Origin: Clostridium sp.
GTDB lineage: Bacteria > Bacillota > Clostridia > Lachnospirales > Lachnospiraceae
Assembly: GCA_021770825.1 (NCBI GenBank)
Contig: JAETQD010000010.1
Location: 62,227 to 126,226, forward strand
DNA length: 64,000 bases
Direction: 5' to 3'
The translations under genes and the position numbers were made by a program. Below the pieces are notes generated by a model. The model had not been told where the DNA came from and searched no databases. It saw nothing but the letters and a program-made list of their open reading frames with translations. This document shows, one piece after another, positions 20,413 through 54,543 of the stretch; the first letter of the stretch is position 1; every line of letters starts with the position of its first letter.

Positions 20413-20614
20413 TATTTCTTCGTAAAAGAATCCCGGTTCTCTCCATCAGGGGGAAACCGGGATTTCTCATCCAAAGGTCACACCAGCCGCAGCGTGTTCC
20501 CGGGATAATCATTGGCGAGACCGGACACCTGCGATACGGACATGCCGCACTCCTCCCGGAACTGATGTGACAAAAACATTATATGACAGAATAAAGAAAG
20601 TTTCAACACATGAT

Positions 20615-20959
20615 TCAAAGCTCCTCTTCATGCTCCGACAAATAGGCTACCAGTCCGTCGATGAATTGTCCGTTTCTCGGCTTTGCGTTGACTGGATAGG
20701 GAACGATCTCCTTTAACAGTTTCCTATTTCCCTGCTCCCATATGGTATCCACCACCGTTCGGATGTTCCGCTCCACACAAAAAGGAGTGGTGTTGTAGAG
20801 CTGGGCTACCTCATTGTACAGCCATTTGCACTGGTAAATGAACACTTCGCTTTTCATTACCATTTCAATGGCGCTGGCTGTATAGTAAAAACCCAGATAC
20901 CCTCCGTTGGCACCGAGCTGCCTCAGCAGACGGTGCGCTGCATTCTCTTTTTTAATCAT
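20615..20959 (-). CDS. Stand-alone Spo0A C-terminal (DNA-binding) domain protein with no receiver domain
   Basis: The 114-aa protein aligns to the Spo0A C-terminal domain. [13 protein letters not shown] aligns with [45 protein letters not shown] aligns with [47 protein letters not shown] aligns with KPTNSEFIAMVADKL. Confidence 0.75.
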   Translation of the reverse strand: [114 protein letters not shown]

Positions 20960-21065
20960 TTGTCAACTCTCCATTTCTTCTGTATGTTTTCCCTTCTATT
21001 TTAGTATGGGAAAACCGAGACGAAAACAGAATTGTCGCGACATCTTTCGACATCGTGTAAAATTA

Positions 21066-22295
21066 CTAATTTAACTCGGCAATTCTGGTGATTCCGACAT
21101 AGATATGGGAGATTTTGTACCAGGTGGCAAAATCCACCACTCCCGTGACCGGAAGGCCGAACACCGACTGGAAAGCCTCCACCGCATTTGCCGTGGCCTG
21201 GCCGTAGATTCCGTCGGGACGGATCCTGGGAATTGCCGTATAAATGGTGGCCACCGTATCAAGCTGCTCCTGTATCTGCTGGACCTTGTTTCCGCTGCTT
21301 CCAATGGTCAGGTCCGCTCCCGGCCAGGAAGACGGAATGCCGGAAATCTGTTCCGCCGTATTGATATACATGTCATCCCCGTAAAAATACCGCAGAATCT
21401 CAATGGGACTGTATCCTCTTTCGCCCAAATCACAAGACCCCCACTGAGTCATCCAGCCGGGACAAGTTACCTGTCTGCCGTCACAGTACTGGGTGAGAAT
21501 GGGCTGCTTCACCTCCGGCCTGGACAGGAAATTGTCAAAAATATCATCCACCACCACAGAGATGGACTCATAAATATTCCGCCCGTAAATCCATTTATGG
21601 TCATAGGCCGTGGAGGATGTAATGGTGAAATCGTATCCCTTGTTCCGGTACCATTCCGTGTACACCCGGTTTAGGGTGAAGGACATGATAGCCAGCACAT
21701 TGGCTGTGATGGAGGCCTGGGGCCAGGTGGCATAGATTTCACTGGACGCCACGTTTTTAATGTAATCCCGGTAGGGAACGTAATAGTTTTTTGCAGAGGA
21801 GTTGGAGGGGACCCCGTCATGGACCACCACAGTCTGGGGAACCACAACCCTGGAAAGCACAATCTCCCCGCTTTCCCCCATGGGTTTGATTTCACTCTCC
21901 GCGATTTTCGGAGGGAAGCTCCCATAAAGGGTGTGGTCAGGAATTACAATGTCTTCCTCGGCTCCCTCTGCCTGGGATAAGGGAATCAGCCTGGCCCCCT
22001 GGAGGGAGGTGGCCTCAGCCAGAATTTCCGAGCCGGAAATCACAAGCGGCTCATATCCCGGCGCCACGATGCGGATGGTATACTCTGCATAGGGCCGTAC
22101 CTCCACAGGATTTAAGCTGAGCTCCACCGGAGGCGCCTCCAGCGCCACATTCTCTGTCTGCCCGGAGCTGTTGGTGGTCAGCTCCTCCAAAATAACATCC
22201 GGTTCCTCCGTCTTCGCTATGGAAATTTTTGCATCTGTAATGGGAAAATTGTTGGTGTCAGAAACGACATCCACCTGCAAATAGCCTTGTGCCAT
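21066..22295 (-). CDS. SpoIID/LytB-like domain protein with a C-terminal peptidoglycan-binding domain (PG_binding_1)
   Basis: Central region (…SSEIYATWPQASITANVLAIMSFTLNRV…YDFTITSSTAYDHK…) follows the SpoIID/LytB hydrophobic pattern. The C-terminus GIYGQATANAVEAFQSVFGLPVTGVVDFATW is a classic PG-binding repeat. Confidence 0.5.
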   Translation of the reverse strand: MAQGYLQVDVVSDTNNFPITDAKISIAKTEEPDVILEELTTNSSGQTENVALEAPPVELSLNPVEVRPYAEYTIRIVAPGYEPLVISGSEILAEATSLQGARLIPLSQAEGAEEDIVIPDHTLYGSFPPKIAESEIKPMGESGEIVLSRVVVPQTVVVHDGVPSNSSAKNYYVPYRDYIKNVASSEIYATWPQASITANVLAIMSFTLNRVYTEWYRNKGYDFTITSSTAYDHKWIYGRNIYESISVVVDDIFDNFLSRPEVKQPILTQYCDGRQVTCPGWMTQWGSCDLGERGYSPIEILRYFYGDDMYINTAEQISGIPSSWPGADLTIGSSGNKVQQIQEQLDTVATIYTAIPRIRPDGIYGQATANAVEAFQSVFGLPVTGVVDFATWYKISHIYVGITRIAELN

Positions 22296-22408: not shown

Positions 22409-22481
22409 GGGGCATTAGCGCAGTTGGGAGCGCGTTTGAATGGCATTCAAAAGGTCGTGGGTTCGAATCCCATATGCTCCA
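22409..22481 (+). tRNA. tRNA-Ala (anticodon GGC)
   Basis: Manual fold. Acceptor stem GGGGCAT/ATGCTCC with the G3:U70 Ala identity pair. D-arm GCGC-AGTTGGGA-GCGC. Anticodon loop AT-GGC-AT. T-arm GTGGG-TTCGAAT-CCCAT. Confidence 0.8.
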
Positions 22482-22486
22482 CTTTT

Positions 22487-23164
22487 TTATTTGCAGATAT
22501 GGTTCATCGGTAGAACGCTAGCTTCCCAAGCTGGAAAGGCGGGTTCGACTCCCGTTATCTGCTGACAATATGATTCATGGCATAAATCCTCTGGTTTTCC
22601 AGGGGATTTTTTTAATAGCTCCTCCATCTGCCTCACCCCGCGTTTCTGGGAGGTGATGATAGCGGTGAGAATGGGGACCAGGTCCGGGCAGATGTTCTGG
22701 GACAAGGCATTCTCCGACATGCGGATGGCTCCCATGTGATGGGGAATCATTTCCCGCATGAAATCTGTGTTCAGATCATTGTCCGCGGGCGCCGACCCCA
22801 TCTCGGAAAACATGGTTTTCATGATCGATTCTGTTTTATTCTGGTAAGCCCGCACATCCTGCGGCGGGTTCATAAGCCGCCTGCAAAGGGGAAGGGCCGC
22901 TTCCATGTCAGCAATGCTTTTTGTCTGCTCGGAAATAATCTGGAGGGCAATGTTCTGAAGGGGAATGTTGGTGGTAAACCGCAAAAGATTTTTGGACATT
23001 TCAATGGCTGCCCTGTGGTGGGGAATCATCTGCACAATAAAATTATGGGAGATGCTCTCTGTAAGCGGCGCCCCGGTCATCCCCTCGATGAGTTCTCTCA
23101 ATATCTTCTCATAGGTTCTCAAATATTCGGAAGTAACAAGACTCAGCGTATTCTGGCTGTTCAT
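22487..23164 (-). CDS. DUF305 domain protein
   Basis: Two MIPHHxxAIxMS motifs (MIPHHRAAIEMS, MIPHHMGAIRMS) typical of DUF305. Start trimmed to MNSQN. The last ~25 codons lie antisense to tRNA-Gly. Confidence 0.7.
   Translation of the reverse strand: MNSQNTLSLVTSEYLRTYEKILRELIEGMTGAPLTESISHNFIVQMIPHHRAAIEMSKNLLRFTTNIPLQNIALQIISEQTKSIADMEAALPLCRRLMNPPQDVRAYQNKTESIMKTMFSEMGSAPADNDLNTDFMREMIPHHMGAIRMSENALSQNICPDLVPILTAIITSQKRGVRQMEELLKKSPGKPEDLCHESYCQQITGVEPAFPAWEASVLPMNHICK
22493..22563 (+). tRNA. tRNA-Gly (anticodon CCC)
   Basis: Manual fold. Acceptor stem GCAGATA/TATCTGC. Anticodon stem CTAGC/GCTGG with loop TT-CCC-AA. T-arm GCGGG-TTCGACT-CCCGT. Discriminator U. Confidence 0.8.
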
Positions 23165-23311
23165 GGTTTCTCTCCCTGCTCCATATCCGCAGACGGCCAT
23201 GGCAGTTTTTCCTTCTATCTAAGAATATGCCGAAACGTCCTTCTCTGTCACTTTTTTGCGGGCCGTGTCTGTTGCCCTGCTCCAAACGGCAACAAAAAAA
23301 GAGGAGCGTCA

Positions 23312-53072: not shown

Positions 53073-54185
53073 TTATGTCTCTGCTCCGGAAGTCCCCATA
53101 AGCTCCGAAAGCTGCTCCAGGATTCCTGTTCCGCCATGGAGGGAAATGGTTCCCACCTTGTCACAGATTTTCTCCAGATACTCAAGCTCTTTTAACTTAA
53201 ACAGGGTTTTGTTCTCCTCCATGAGTCTTGCCGTATTCAAAAGGCTTCTGGTGGAGGCCACCTCTTCCCGCCTCATGATCACGTTGGCCTGGGCCTTTTT
53301 CTCAGCCACCAGCACCGTATTCATGATGTCGCGGATTTCACCGGGAAGAATGATGTCCTTGATGCCGCCGCCTGTCACCTCCACACAGAGCTCCTCCTGC
53401 TTTTCTCTCATTTTTTCTAAGATATAGCGCCCGATTTCCTCCTTCTGGGCCAACAGCTCATCCAGACGGTACTTTCCCACATACTCCCGGATAATCAGCT
53501 GGGCCGTGGTATAAAGCTGGGTGGAAGCTCCGTCTACATTCTGTACCAGGCGCTCCGGGTCTGTGATCCGGTACTGACAGATGACGTTGAGTCTCACGCC
53601 CACCTTATCGGCTGTCAAAATCTCCTGGCCGGAAATTTCAAGCTGCTGAATCTTCATGTTGAAGATTTTCGCAGTTACCTCCACTCCGTAATTCCAGAAA
53701 TACCAGGTTCCCGGCCCCAACTGCTTCTCAAACCGGTTATCAAAATACAAAAGTCCAAGTTCTCCGTCCTTTACCACGATCTTTTTATAGAACTTCACCG
53801 GAAGCAAATCCATATACATTCTCGGAATGTTCTGGTCCATATACGGATTTGTGATATTCAGAATCCGGAACTCATTCTTCTCATACACATTCCAGAACCA
53901 GGTTTCCGCCTCTGTCAGCACCTGGCGGTAGGCACCGTTTACAAAGTGCAGGGCAATGGAAGTATCGGGAAGCTTCGCCGCCGTTACCCTGGAGGCGAAC
54001 TCCGGGCACTGCATCAAAACATCCATGGGTATGTCCTTAGTGTCCACCTTTCCGGTCATGGGAACGATCAGAACCTCATAACCGAGATTTTTAAAATATG
54101 TATGCTTTCCAGCCAAAAGGAGTGTCACAAAGCGGCCGTTTTTCATGAGATAGCCGCATTCCTGCTCTTTAATCATCCATTTCAT
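53073..54185 (-). CDS. SPFH/Band-7 (slipin-like) domain protein with no obvious TM anchor
   Basis: The C-terminal 200 aa fit the SPFH domain plus coiled coil (…RLNVICQYRITDPERL…AEKKAQANVIMRREE…). Start chosen at MKWMIKEQ, which has AGGAGG 8 nt upstream. The track's 85-aa extension was rejected. Confidence 0.6.
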   Translation of the reverse strand: MKWMIKEQECGYLMKNGRFVTLLLAGKHTYFKNLGYEVLIVPMTGKVDTKDIPMDVLMQCPEFASRVTAAKLPDTSIALHFVNGAYRQVLTEAETWFWNVYEKNEFRILNITNPYMDQNIPRMYMDLLPVKFYKKIVVKDGELGLLYFDNRFEKQLGPGTWYFWNYGVEVTAKIFNMKIQQLEISGQEILTADKVGVRLNVICQYRITDPERLVQNVDGASTQLYTTAQLIIREYVGKYRLDELLAQKEEIGRYILEKMREKQEELCVEVTGGGIKDIILPGEIRDIMNTVLVAEKKAQANVIMRREEVASTRSLLNTARLMEENKTLFKLKELEYLEKICDKVGTISLHGGTGILEQLSELMGTSGAET

Positions 54186-54543
54186 TTCGCATTTCCTCCT
54201 TAAATTCTTTCCTGTTCCCGCTGGTCTCCCGGCTTCCTGACGGCCGCATACAGATGGTGCAGGCGGTATCCAATCCGGTGCAGGCTTTTTTGGAAGTGCC
54301 CGACGGCCGGAAACCGGACTCCATACGGTCGTTTGGTTGTAAATCATCTCTTTTTGAACATCCGGTCCGGTATACCGCCCGGCATCGCCGCCGGCACCCC
54401 AAGGGCCGCCCCTATGGCATCCCTCCGGTTCTGGAGCCATCTGTTCCTTTGTCTTTCGACACCTACATCCTACCGTTTTTTTCCAGAAAAATCATTTAAA
54501 AAAAGTTGCGAACCTGCTCATACTATCCTTGGAGGTGATAACA

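What the first reader, a model, noticed from the sequence alone, without database searches (positions are those of the whole stretch)
20615..20959. Receiver-less Spo0A C-terminal domain protein
The 114-aa ORF aligns along its length with the DNA-binding C-terminal domain of Spo0A, including the 0A-box recognition helix region (…[23 protein letters not shown]…). It lacks the phospho-receiver domain. In Bacillus subtilis the isolated Spo0A-C domain activates transcription constitutively. A stand-alone copy could act as a phosphorylation-independent activator or as a competitor at 0A boxes. It lies among sporulation genes (cotJ, YkwD, SpoIID-like).
Basis: partly seen in the sequence, partly recalled or inferred. 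Interest (0 to 1): 0.5.

Follow-up and report, generated by a model that had tools for sequence, protein, structure and literature searches.

The report
Stand-alone Spo0A DNA-binding domain gene
This is an intact, conserved gene for a small protein made only of the DNA-binding half of the sporulation master regulator Spo0A, with Spo0A-type binding sites in its own promoter; such genes are already annotated and common in gut Clostridia, but none has been tested experimentally.

Summary
Window 20615..20959 (minus strand) encodes a 114-aa protein that matches Pfam Spo0A_C end to end (E=3e-26) and models onto the Spo0A-DNA crystal structure 1LQ1 (TM 0.79). It has no receiver domain and is not the 3' end of a longer gene. 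It is under strong purifying selection (dN/dS about 0.05). It sits in a conserved chromosomal neighbourhood in Lachnospiraceae.

The recognition-helix residues E63, R64 and R67 (B. subtilis E213, R214, R217) are invariant in 37 homologues. The positions equivalent to the sigma-A-contact residues S233 and V240 vary.

New here: all 19 orthologous loci keep a promoter block with two direct 0A-type boxes 10 bp apart, a third inverted box over the -35 region, and a TAnAAT -10. More distant stand-alone homologues, including prophage copies, often carry similar boxes.

Best reading: a phosphorylation-independent occupant of 0A boxes. It is switched on through those boxes by Spo0A~P and/or itself, and is more likely a repressor or competitor than an activator.

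The kind is known: NCBI names it, truncated spo0A has been reported in phages, and about 8,500 clusters match. This is a new member of a known kind, of moderate interest. Side finds: an unannotated ~100-nt structured RNA just downstream, and prophages that split the upstream gene.

The parts
20615..20959 (-). Coding sequence of the 114-aa stand-alone Spo0A_C protein (stop codon included). The helix-turn-helix is about residues 44-76. Recognition-helix residues E63, R64 and R67 correspond to B. subtilis E213, R214 and R217.
20967..20972 (-). Ribosome-binding site GGAGAG, 7 nt before the ATG. It lies inside a conserved block ACAAAAGAAAnGGAGA.
20998..21003 (-). Putative sigma-A-type -10 hexamer TAAAAT. 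It reads TAnAAT in all 12 aligned orthologous upstream regions. No good -35 lies 16-18 nt upstream. The promoter assignment is inferred, not shown.
21018..21024 (-). Box 3: TTCGTCT, an inverted 0A-type box (reverse complement AGACGAA, 6 of 7 to TGNCGAA). It overlaps the expected -35 position and sits within the near-invariant TTTTCGTCT.
21036..21042 (-). Box 2: TGTCGCG, a direct 0A-type half-conserved box. The TGTCG core is kept, and it starts exactly 10 bp after box 1.
21046..21052 (-). Box 1: TGTCGAA, a perfect 0A box on the sense strand, 87-93 nt upstream of the ATG. GTCGAA is invariant in nearly all orthologues.
20997..21054 (-). The whole conserved promoter footprint (boxes 1-3, the conserved ATTCT, and the -10).
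   Evidence: (E=1.7e-16 in the window)

Best explanation
The gene encodes a receiver-less paralogue of the Spo0A effector domain. I propose it binds 0A-type boxes (core GTCGAA) through an unchanged recognition helix. Binding is probably as head-to-tail pairs on boxes one helical turn apart, and needs no phosphorylation.

Its own promoter has a weak -35 region overlapped by an inverted box, and two direct boxes about 45-60 nt upstream of the inferred transcription start. So I propose it is switched on by Spo0A~P at the onset of sporulation and is then subject to its own binding. Because the canonical sigma-A-contact surface is not kept, its most likely action is occupancy: repression of, or competition at, 0A-box promoters, including autoregulation. 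It would reproduce the repressor half of Spo0A's function independently of the phosphorylation state.

Shown: domain identity, fold, invariant recognition residues, purifying selection, a conserved chromosomal position, and the conserved box architecture. Inferred: actual DNA binding, which protein occupies the boxes, the promoter and sigma assignment, and the sign of regulation.
For: The domain and fold are those of Spo0A_C.

E63, R64, I66, R67, T57 and V62 are invariant across both stand-alone and canonical Spo0A sequences. T58 and K45 are also kept in nearly all of them. By my recollection of the 1LQ1 paper, E213, R214 and R217 are the base-contacting residues. PMC3485338 states that the contacts are to G2, C4 and G5 of TGTCGAA, and that the isolated DNA-binding domain binds true targets without phosphorylation.

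In the promoter footprint exactly those bases are the conserved ones. GTCG-AA of box 1, TC (mostly TGTCG) of box 2 and TT-TCG-C of box 3 are invariant or nearly so in 12 orthologous upstream regions. Synonymous sites in the same comparisons are saturated, with pS 0.72-0.84. The block travels with the gene when the upstream neighbour differs (L001, L018). It occurs nowhere else in about 0.5 Mb of related loci.

The 10-bp spacing of boxes 1 and 2 matches the tandem-dimer arrangement named in the title and description of 1LQ1 (the details are from memory).

Four of 13 independent groups of more distant stand-alone homologues have a perfect TGTCGAA in the 200 nt upstream of their start codon, in three of them 73-88 nt upstream. 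About 0.024 per region is expected by chance, giving a binomial P of 2e-4. Several have tandem GTCG cores 9-10 bp apart, including viral copies.

The positions equivalent to B. subtilis S233 and V240 are variable, with entropy 2.5 and 3.4 bits. Only 4 of the 14 residues of region 227-240 are identical.
Against: Identity to canonical effector domains is only 26-31%, against 38-54% among canonical ones. Neighbours of the contact residues differ: S210 is F, R211 is C and H218 is T. Affinity or specificity may therefore have shifted.

The boxes may be bound only by canonical Spo0A, or only by this protein; sequence alone cannot tell. Helix alpha-E is still well conserved within the subfamily (GNRxLLxEIIPYP), so some partner contact, possibly with RNA polymerase, cannot be excluded.

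No terminator-like site lies between the upstream gene and this one, so read-through transcription is possible. No expression or binding data exist. The presence of a canonical spo0A in the same genome was not checked.
Confidence: 0.5

Rival explanations
1. It is a constitutive activator that forms a positive-feedback latch. Once induced by Spo0A~P, the receiver-less protein activates Spo0A-dependent promoters, including its own, without phosphorylation, and so locks in commitment to sporulation.
For: Engineered receiver-less Spo0A forms are constitutively active in B. subtilis (Grimsley 1994 and Ireton 1993, as cited in PMC10294663 and PMC3485338). G227, N228 and Y238 equivalents are kept, and alpha-E is conserved within the subfamily. 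The boxes lie about 45-60 nt upstream of the inferred start of an activator-type promoter with a weak -35.
Against: The equivalents of S231, S233 and F236 are changed, and those of S233 and V240 are variable among orthologues. That is not expected for a conserved sigma-A contact. The role of these residues comes from my memory of B. subtilis genetics.
Confidence: 0.2
2. It is a local regulator with a shifted specificity. The conserved boxes would be its own operator, and it would control neighbouring sporulation genes (the 409-aa PG-binding protein, cotJABC, ykwD) rather than the Spo0A regulon at large.
For: The pairing with the upstream 409-aa gene is conserved in most orthologous loci, and cotJ or ykwD are often adjacent. 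The protein is only 26-31% identical to canonical domains.
Against: The promoter profile finds no second copy of the box block near any neighbouring gene. In L001 and L018 the neighbours are rearranged yet the gene and its promoter persist. The base-contact residues are unchanged.
Confidence: 0.12
3. It is a domesticated prophage gene that still serves phage-host conflict, for example blocking or mimicking the manipulation of sporulation by related prophages. It would not be a part of the host's developmental circuit.
For: phrog_24603 matches at E=5.5e-46. Homologues 44-46% identical sit at prophage ends beside lysis and tail genes, and three prophages in one genome each carry a copy. The upstream neighbour gene is a recurrent prophage integration site.
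Against: The orthologues are chromosomal and syntenic across several genera. No phage genes flank them in the window or in L001-L019. They are under strong purifying selection. The two 'viral' contigs that carry orthologues do so in host flank.
Confidence: 0.1
4. It is a decaying remnant of a spo0A duplication with no function.
For: None beyond its small size and the lack of a receiver domain.
Against: The frame is intact in all orthologues. dN/dS is about 0.05, the synteny is conserved, and so are the promoter and the ribosome-binding site. The exact protein sequence is found on 30 contigs in public data.
Confidence: 0.02

Closest known systems
Effector (C-terminal) domain of Spo0A (B. subtilis and G. 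stearothermophilus, PDB 1LQ1 and 1FC3; C. difficile Spo0A-DBD)
   Same: It has the same Pfam domain over its full length and the same six-helix fold with a helix-turn-helix (TM 0.77-0.79). The VERxIR recognition helix, the TT motif before it and the KPxN motif are identical. 0A-type boxes are present in its own promoter, as is known for spo0A itself (PMC3485338).
   Different: There is no receiver domain or linker. Identity is only 26-31%. The loop before KPxN has a 3-residue deletion. H218 is T, R211 is C and S210 is F. The sigma-A-activating region has diverged, and there is an acidic C-terminal tail (SEHEEEL).
Phage-carried truncated spo0A homologues (Schwartz et al. 2023, mBio, PMC10294663); PF08769 enriched on gut mobile elements (PMC6907783); phrog_24603
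   Same: The architecture is the same single domain. Relatives 44-46% identical are true prophage genes. GTCG-core boxes also lie upstream of several viral copies.
   Different: This copy and its orthologues are chromosomal, with conserved non-phage neighbours across genera. Phage records in GenBank are at most 32% identical.
Engineered receiver-less Spo0A (the Spo0A DNA-binding fragment; the sad67 allele)
   Same: It is an effector domain freed from receiver inhibition, so DNA binding should not need phosphorylation (as cited in PMC3485338 and PMC10294663).
   Different: Those constructs keep the native sigma-A-contact surface and activate transcription. Here that surface is not conserved.
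GerE of B. subtilis (a stand-alone effector-type HTH regulator in sporulation); an analogy from my own knowledge, not tested
   Same: It is a small protein consisting only of a response-regulator-type output domain that acts during sporulation.
   Different: It belongs to a different fold family (LuxR/FixJ-type). No homology is claimed.

Membership tests
Spo0A_C domain family (Pfam PF08769) | Match to the family HMM above the gathering score, over the full domain | tested here: met
   91.9 bits against a cutoff of 25, E=3e-26, profile positions 2-104 of 104
Spo0A_C domain family (Pfam PF08769) | Six-helix effector fold with a helix-turn-helix, as in 1LQ1 and 1FC3 | tested here: met
   AF2 model with pLDDT 88.9 and six helices. 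Foldseek TM 0.77-0.79 to 1LQ1 and 1FC3; the next hits are insignificant
Spo0A_C domain family (Pfam PF08769) | Recognition-helix residues that read the 0A box (B. subtilis E213, R214, R217) | tested here: met
   E63, R64 and R67 are invariant in 37 homologues and in canonical sequences. The assignment of these residues as base contacts is from memory of the 1LQ1 paper
Spo0A_C domain family (Pfam PF08769) | Actual binding to TGNCGAA boxes | not testable with these tools
   Only indirect evidence: conserved 0A-type boxes in its own promoter
Canonical Spo0A (NCBIfam TIGR02875 equivalog) | N-terminal receiver domain with the phospho-acceptor aspartate | tested here: not met
   The protein is 114 aa and only model positions 149-251 are matched. 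The score is 55.1 against a cutoff of 200. No receiver similarity lies adjacent. It is therefore not a Spo0A orthologue
Canonical Spo0A (NCBIfam TIGR02875 equivalog) | Conserved sigma-A-activating region (B. subtilis 227-240) | tested here: not met
   4 of 14 residues are identical. The equivalents of S233 and V240 vary among orthologues. The residue roles are from memory of B. subtilis genetics
Phage- or mobile-element-borne truncated Spo0A | Single Spo0A_C domain without a receiver | tested here: met
   phrog_24603 at E=5.5e-46
Phage- or mobile-element-borne truncated Spo0A | Located within a prophage or other mobile element | tested here: not met
   The flanks are carAB, cotJABC, ykwD, the PG-binding protein, an AI-2E transporter, an aminotransferase and cdaA-ybbR. 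This order is conserved in L001-L019 with no phage or mobility genes

The most novel reading that the evidence does not exclude
A formerly phage-derived, phosphorylation-blind Spo0A mimic has been fixed in the chromosome of a group of Lachnospiraceae. It is wired into the Spo0A circuit through three 0A boxes in its own promoter. There it would act as a built-in brake, timer or memory element (or, less likely, a commitment latch) for sporulation in gut anaerobes. By extension, the thousands of stand-alone Spo0A_C proteins would be a general, unstudied layer of control over 0A-box promoters.
Probability: 0.25. Interest if true: 0.65.

Novelty: new member of a known kind. Interest (0 to 1): 0.4.

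Why it matters
Spo0A is the universal entry switch to endospore formation, and sporulation drives the transmission of many gut Firmicutes. Receiver-less copies of its DNA-binding domain are very common: a profile of this subfamily hits 8,518 clusters at 50% identity, mostly proteins of 110-180 aa. Yet I found no experimental study of one in the literature held; there are only genomic notes on phage and mobile-element copies. This locus offers a clean, chromosomal, strongly conserved example from cultured relatives. It comes with an explicit, testable cis-element: three 0A-type boxes and a -10. That makes it a practical entry point for asking what these proteins do to the Spo0A regulon.

Tried and rejected
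- **3' end of a longer spo0A, or a frameshifted gene:** rejected. The frame is closed, the upstream gene is a PG_binding_1 protein, and no receiver similarity is adjacent.
- **Pseudogene:** rejected.
- **Cargo of a mobile element at this locus:** rejected on synteny. The two IMG/VR contigs with orthologues carry them in host flank.
- **Full-length Spo0A in the window:** there is none.
- **Redox or disulfide role for the conserved C44 and C61:** dropped. C61 also occurs in canonical receiver-containing homologues (L033, L037, L041). The two positions lie at the N-terminal ends of the two helices of the helix-turn-helix, so a disulfide between them looks unlikely from typical HTH geometry; I did not measure the distance in the model.
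- **The 21-aa ORF downstream as a peptide gene:** rejected. Its ATG is not conserved, but the RNA structure is.
- **Rfam, for the promoter region and the downstream RNA:** nothing.
- **Metagenome scan with a 17-mer from the RNA:** about 110 of the 120 hits were chance matches, as expected for a collection of that size. Only 9 passed the covariance model.
- **The 1LQ1 paper:** not held. Residue-level contact statements therefore rest on memory plus PMC3485338.
- **Perfect TGTCGAA boxes across the whole window:** not enriched, 6 found against 7.5 expected. The argument rests on conservation and position, not on counts.

Full report
**1. What is there**

Window 20615..20959 (minus strand) is a 114-aa ORF with an ATG start and a GGAGAG ribosome-binding site 7 nt upstream.

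- It matches Pfam Spo0A_C (PF08769) at E=3e-26 over profile positions 2-104 of 104.
- It matches only the C-terminal part (positions 149-251) of NCBIfam's Spo0A equivalog, at 55 bits against a cutoff of 200.
- It hits the Spo0A effector-domain crystal structures 1FC3 and 1LQ1 by sequence.
- An AlphaFold2 model built on 37 homologues (pLDDT 88.9, six helices) superposes on 1LQ1 and 1FC3 with TM 0.77-0.79. No other fold matches significantly.

The frame cannot be extended. The upstream gene on the same strand (21066..22295) ends 106 nt before the ATG. That gene is a 409-aa protein with a confident PG_binding_1 domain and only a sub-threshold SpoIID hit.

Receiver-domain similarity in the window lies only in three unrelated genes, far away.

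**2. Is it a working gene?**

The exact protein is in public data on 30 contigs. [quoted passage not shown]

A tight family of proteins of about 112-118 aa, 65-96% identical, occurs in Lachnospiraceae isolates and metagenome-assembled genomes from mouse, human, chicken, rabbit and deer gut.

- Against the closest relative, dN/dS is 0.05 at dS 0.45.
- Against the others, synonymous sites are saturated (pS 0.72-0.84) while pN is 0.14-0.21.

The chromosomal order is conserved: cdaA-ybbR-HPr-x-aminotransferase-AI-2E transporter-[409-aa PG-binding protein]-Spo0A_C-(ykwD/cotJABC). There are two rearranged variants and no mobility genes. It is not a pseudogene, and at this locus it is not mobile-element cargo.

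**3. DNA-reading residues**

I aligned stand-alone and canonical, receiver-containing sequences. The positions invariant in both sets include T57, V62, E63, R64, I66 and R67, which correspond to B. subtilis T207, V212, E213, R214, I216 and R217. G77 and the KPxN motif are also invariant.

From my recollection of the 1LQ1 paper, E213, R214 and R217 are the base contacts. PMC3485338 confirms three points:

- The contacts are to G2, C4 and G5 of TGTCGAA.
- Clostridial Spo0A reads the same box.
- The isolated DNA-binding domain binds targets without phosphorylation.

Overall identity to canonical effector domains is only 26-31%, whereas canonical domains from Bacilli and Clostridia share 38-54%. 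This is an old or fast-evolving paralogue, not a recent copy.

In the region equivalent to the sigma-A-activating helix (B. subtilis 227-240), only 4 of 14 residues are identical. Among 34 orthologues the equivalents of S233 and V240 are variable. The role of these residues is from memory of B. subtilis genetics.

**4. The new piece: its promoter**

On the sense strand the 106-nt intergenic region reads:

...GA**TGTCGAA**AGA**TGTCGCG**ACAATTCTGTT**TTCGTCT**CGGTTTTCCCATAC**TAAAAT**AG...

- Box 1 (21052-21046) is a perfect 0A box.
- Box 2 (21042-21036) starts exactly 10 bp later and keeps the TGTCG core.
- Box 3 (21024-21018) is an inverted box (AGACGAA on the other strand). It lies where a -35 element should be.
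- A TAnAAT hexamer (21003-20998) follows.

In an alignment of 12 non-redundant orthologous upstream regions, the conserved positions are GTCG-AA of box 1, TC (mostly TGTCG) of box 2, ATTC, TT-TCG-C of box 3, TA-AAT, and the block around the ribosome-binding site. These are invariant or nearly so, while the sequence between them is scrambled. That is the pattern expected for selected sites, given that synonymous sites are saturated.

A profile of the block hits all 19 orthologous loci held at that point (E from 1e-12 to 1e-17) and nothing else in about 0.5 Mb of related DNA. It also hits the two orthologues found later in IMG/VR contigs. The block stays with the gene where the upstream neighbour is different (L001, L018).

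Perfect TGTCGAA boxes are not enriched in the window as a whole, 6 against 7.5 expected. The case therefore rests on position and conservation.

The feature generalises. Among 13 independent groups of more distant stand-alone homologues, 4 have a perfect box within 200 nt upstream of their start codon, in three of them 73-88 nt upstream. About 0.024 per region is expected, giving P=2e-4. Several groups, including viral ones, have tandem GTCG cores 9-10 bp apart.

**5. Mechanism**

The most economical reading is a phosphorylation-independent reader of 0A-type boxes whose own expression is governed through such boxes. The promoter has a weak -35 overlapped by a box, and two boxes about 45-60 nt upstream of the inferred start. 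That looks activator-dependent, which points to Spo0A~P as the inducer.

The product has the same recognition helix, so it should then compete for the same sites. Because the canonical sigma-A-contact positions are not kept, I favour occupancy (repression, competition, autoregulation) over activation. Repression by Spo0A needs only binding.

All of this is inference from sequence. The sign of regulation, the sigma factor and who occupies the boxes are all open. Read-through from the upstream gene is not excluded, since no terminator-like site was found between the two genes. The rivals are a positive-feedback activator, a local regulator, a phage-conflict role and a dead remnant; they are weighed in the rivals section.

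**6. Comparison with what is known**

Stand-alone Spo0A_C proteins are not new as a kind.

- NCBI annotates them.
- PF08769 was reported as enriched on gut mobile elements (PMC6907783).
- Truncated, effector-only spo0A genes were reported in gut phages, with the same 'no need for host signals' hypothesis (PMC10294663).
- The window protein matches phrog_24603 at E=5.5e-46.
- Relatives 44-46% identical sit at prophage ends beside endolysin, holin and tail genes, and three prophages in one genome each carry a copy.
- GenBank phage records are at most 32% identical.
- A profile search of 1.84 billion representatives finds 8,518 clusters (2,056 at E<=1e-10). The best 150 are mostly proteins of 110-180 aa.

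I found no experimental characterisation in the literature held.

What is added here is a chromosomal, syntenic, strongly constrained orthologous group with a conserved three-box promoter. The verdict is a new member of a known kind, of moderate interest.

**7. Seen in passing**

*(a) A structured RNA just downstream.* A strong sigma-70-like promoter (TTGAAA-17-TATAAT, 20606..20578) drives a structured RNA of about 100 nt (20472..20573, minus strand). The 21-aa ORF inside it is not conserved, but a four-helix structure is.

- The closing stem has six pairs with changes on both sides.
- 98.8% of cells are paired, against 35-49% when the partners are slid.
- No shuffle reaches the observed covariation.

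A covariance model finds 19 copies. Nine of them are in unrelated gut-metagenome contexts, each with its own promoter and a U-run. Rfam 15 has no match.

*(b) The upstream gene is a prophage integration target.* In one IMG/VR contig the 409-aa PG-binding gene is split inside its CPGWM|TQWGSC motif by about 39 kb of prophage, with imperfect terminal inverted repeats. Other viral contigs end in fragments of the gene that start at residues of about 196, 216 and 282. This resembles the prophage-like elements that interrupt sporulation genes in Bacillus.

*(c) Multi-domain Spo0A_C polypeptides.* Polypeptides with 2-5 tandem Spo0A_C domains exist.

Noticed in passing
window 20472-20573 (minus strand), promoter 20578-20606, hairpin and T-run about 20425-20465: An unannotated, free-standing structured RNA of about 100 nt lies directly downstream of the Spo0A_C gene. 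It has its own TTGAAA-17-TATAAT promoter, a four-helix junction, a covarying closing stem (6 pairs with changes on both sides) and nearly invariant inner helices. Covariance model R1 finds 19 copies, 9 of them in unrelated gut-metagenome contexts without Spo0A_C nearby. There is no Rfam 15 match at E<=10. The apparent 21-aa ORF (MSVSQVSGLANDYPGNTLRLV) is not conserved..
   Followed up: partly
L179:2669-3520 and L185:3001-3384 (IMGVR_UViG_3300029305_004024); also L180-L184; window homologue 21066-22295 (minus strand): The conserved 409-aa PG_binding_1 gene upstream of Spo0A_C is split by prophages in other genomes. Residues 1-282 and 282-409 lie about 39 kb apart in one contig. The cut is inside the CPGWM|TQWGSC motif, the element ends in imperfect inverted repeats, and a holin and a CHAP endolysin sit at the prophage end. 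Other viral contigs end in fragments starting at residues of about 196, 216 and 282. This resembles the sporulation-gene-intervening elements skin and SPbeta..
   Followed up: partly
L168:2670-3011 and neighbours; L165, L167, L169, L171: Prophage-borne 113-aa Spo0A_C homologues (44-46% identical) lie at prophage ends beside endolysin, holin, tail-fibre and baseplate genes. Three prophages in one genome each carry a copy. Their upstream regions contain an inverted pair ACGACA...TGTCGT..
   Followed up: partly
proteins P0089, P0090, P0093, P0094 (representative library): Single polypeptides carry 2-5 tandem Spo0A_C domains (439 aa with 4 domains; 849 aa with 5 by Pfam). They could be natural single-chain arrays that read several 0A boxes, or gene-call fusions..
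   Followed up: partly
window 22409-22482 and 22493-22563 (plus strand); ORF 22487-23200 (minus strand): tRNA-Ala(GGC) and tRNA-Gly(CCC) lie between the PG-binding gene and a DUF305 ORF, and the 3' end of that ORF call overlaps the tRNA-Gly. The DUF305 gene and the tRNAs are absent from this position in most orthologous loci, where the AI-2E transporter directly precedes the PG-binding gene..
   Followed up: no
L014 and L035 (both from 'Bacterium 1XD42-76', QZDW01): One isolate genome carries at least two different stand-alone Spo0A_C genes: the orthologue of the window gene, and a 115-aa paralogue about 46% identical over residues 11-84..
   Followed up: no
window 54455-54461 (minus strand): A perfect TGTCGAA box lies about 15 nt upstream of the start of the 455-aa ORF 53073..54440 on the same strand. 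Its significance is unknown, and box counts in the window are at the chance level..
   Followed up: no
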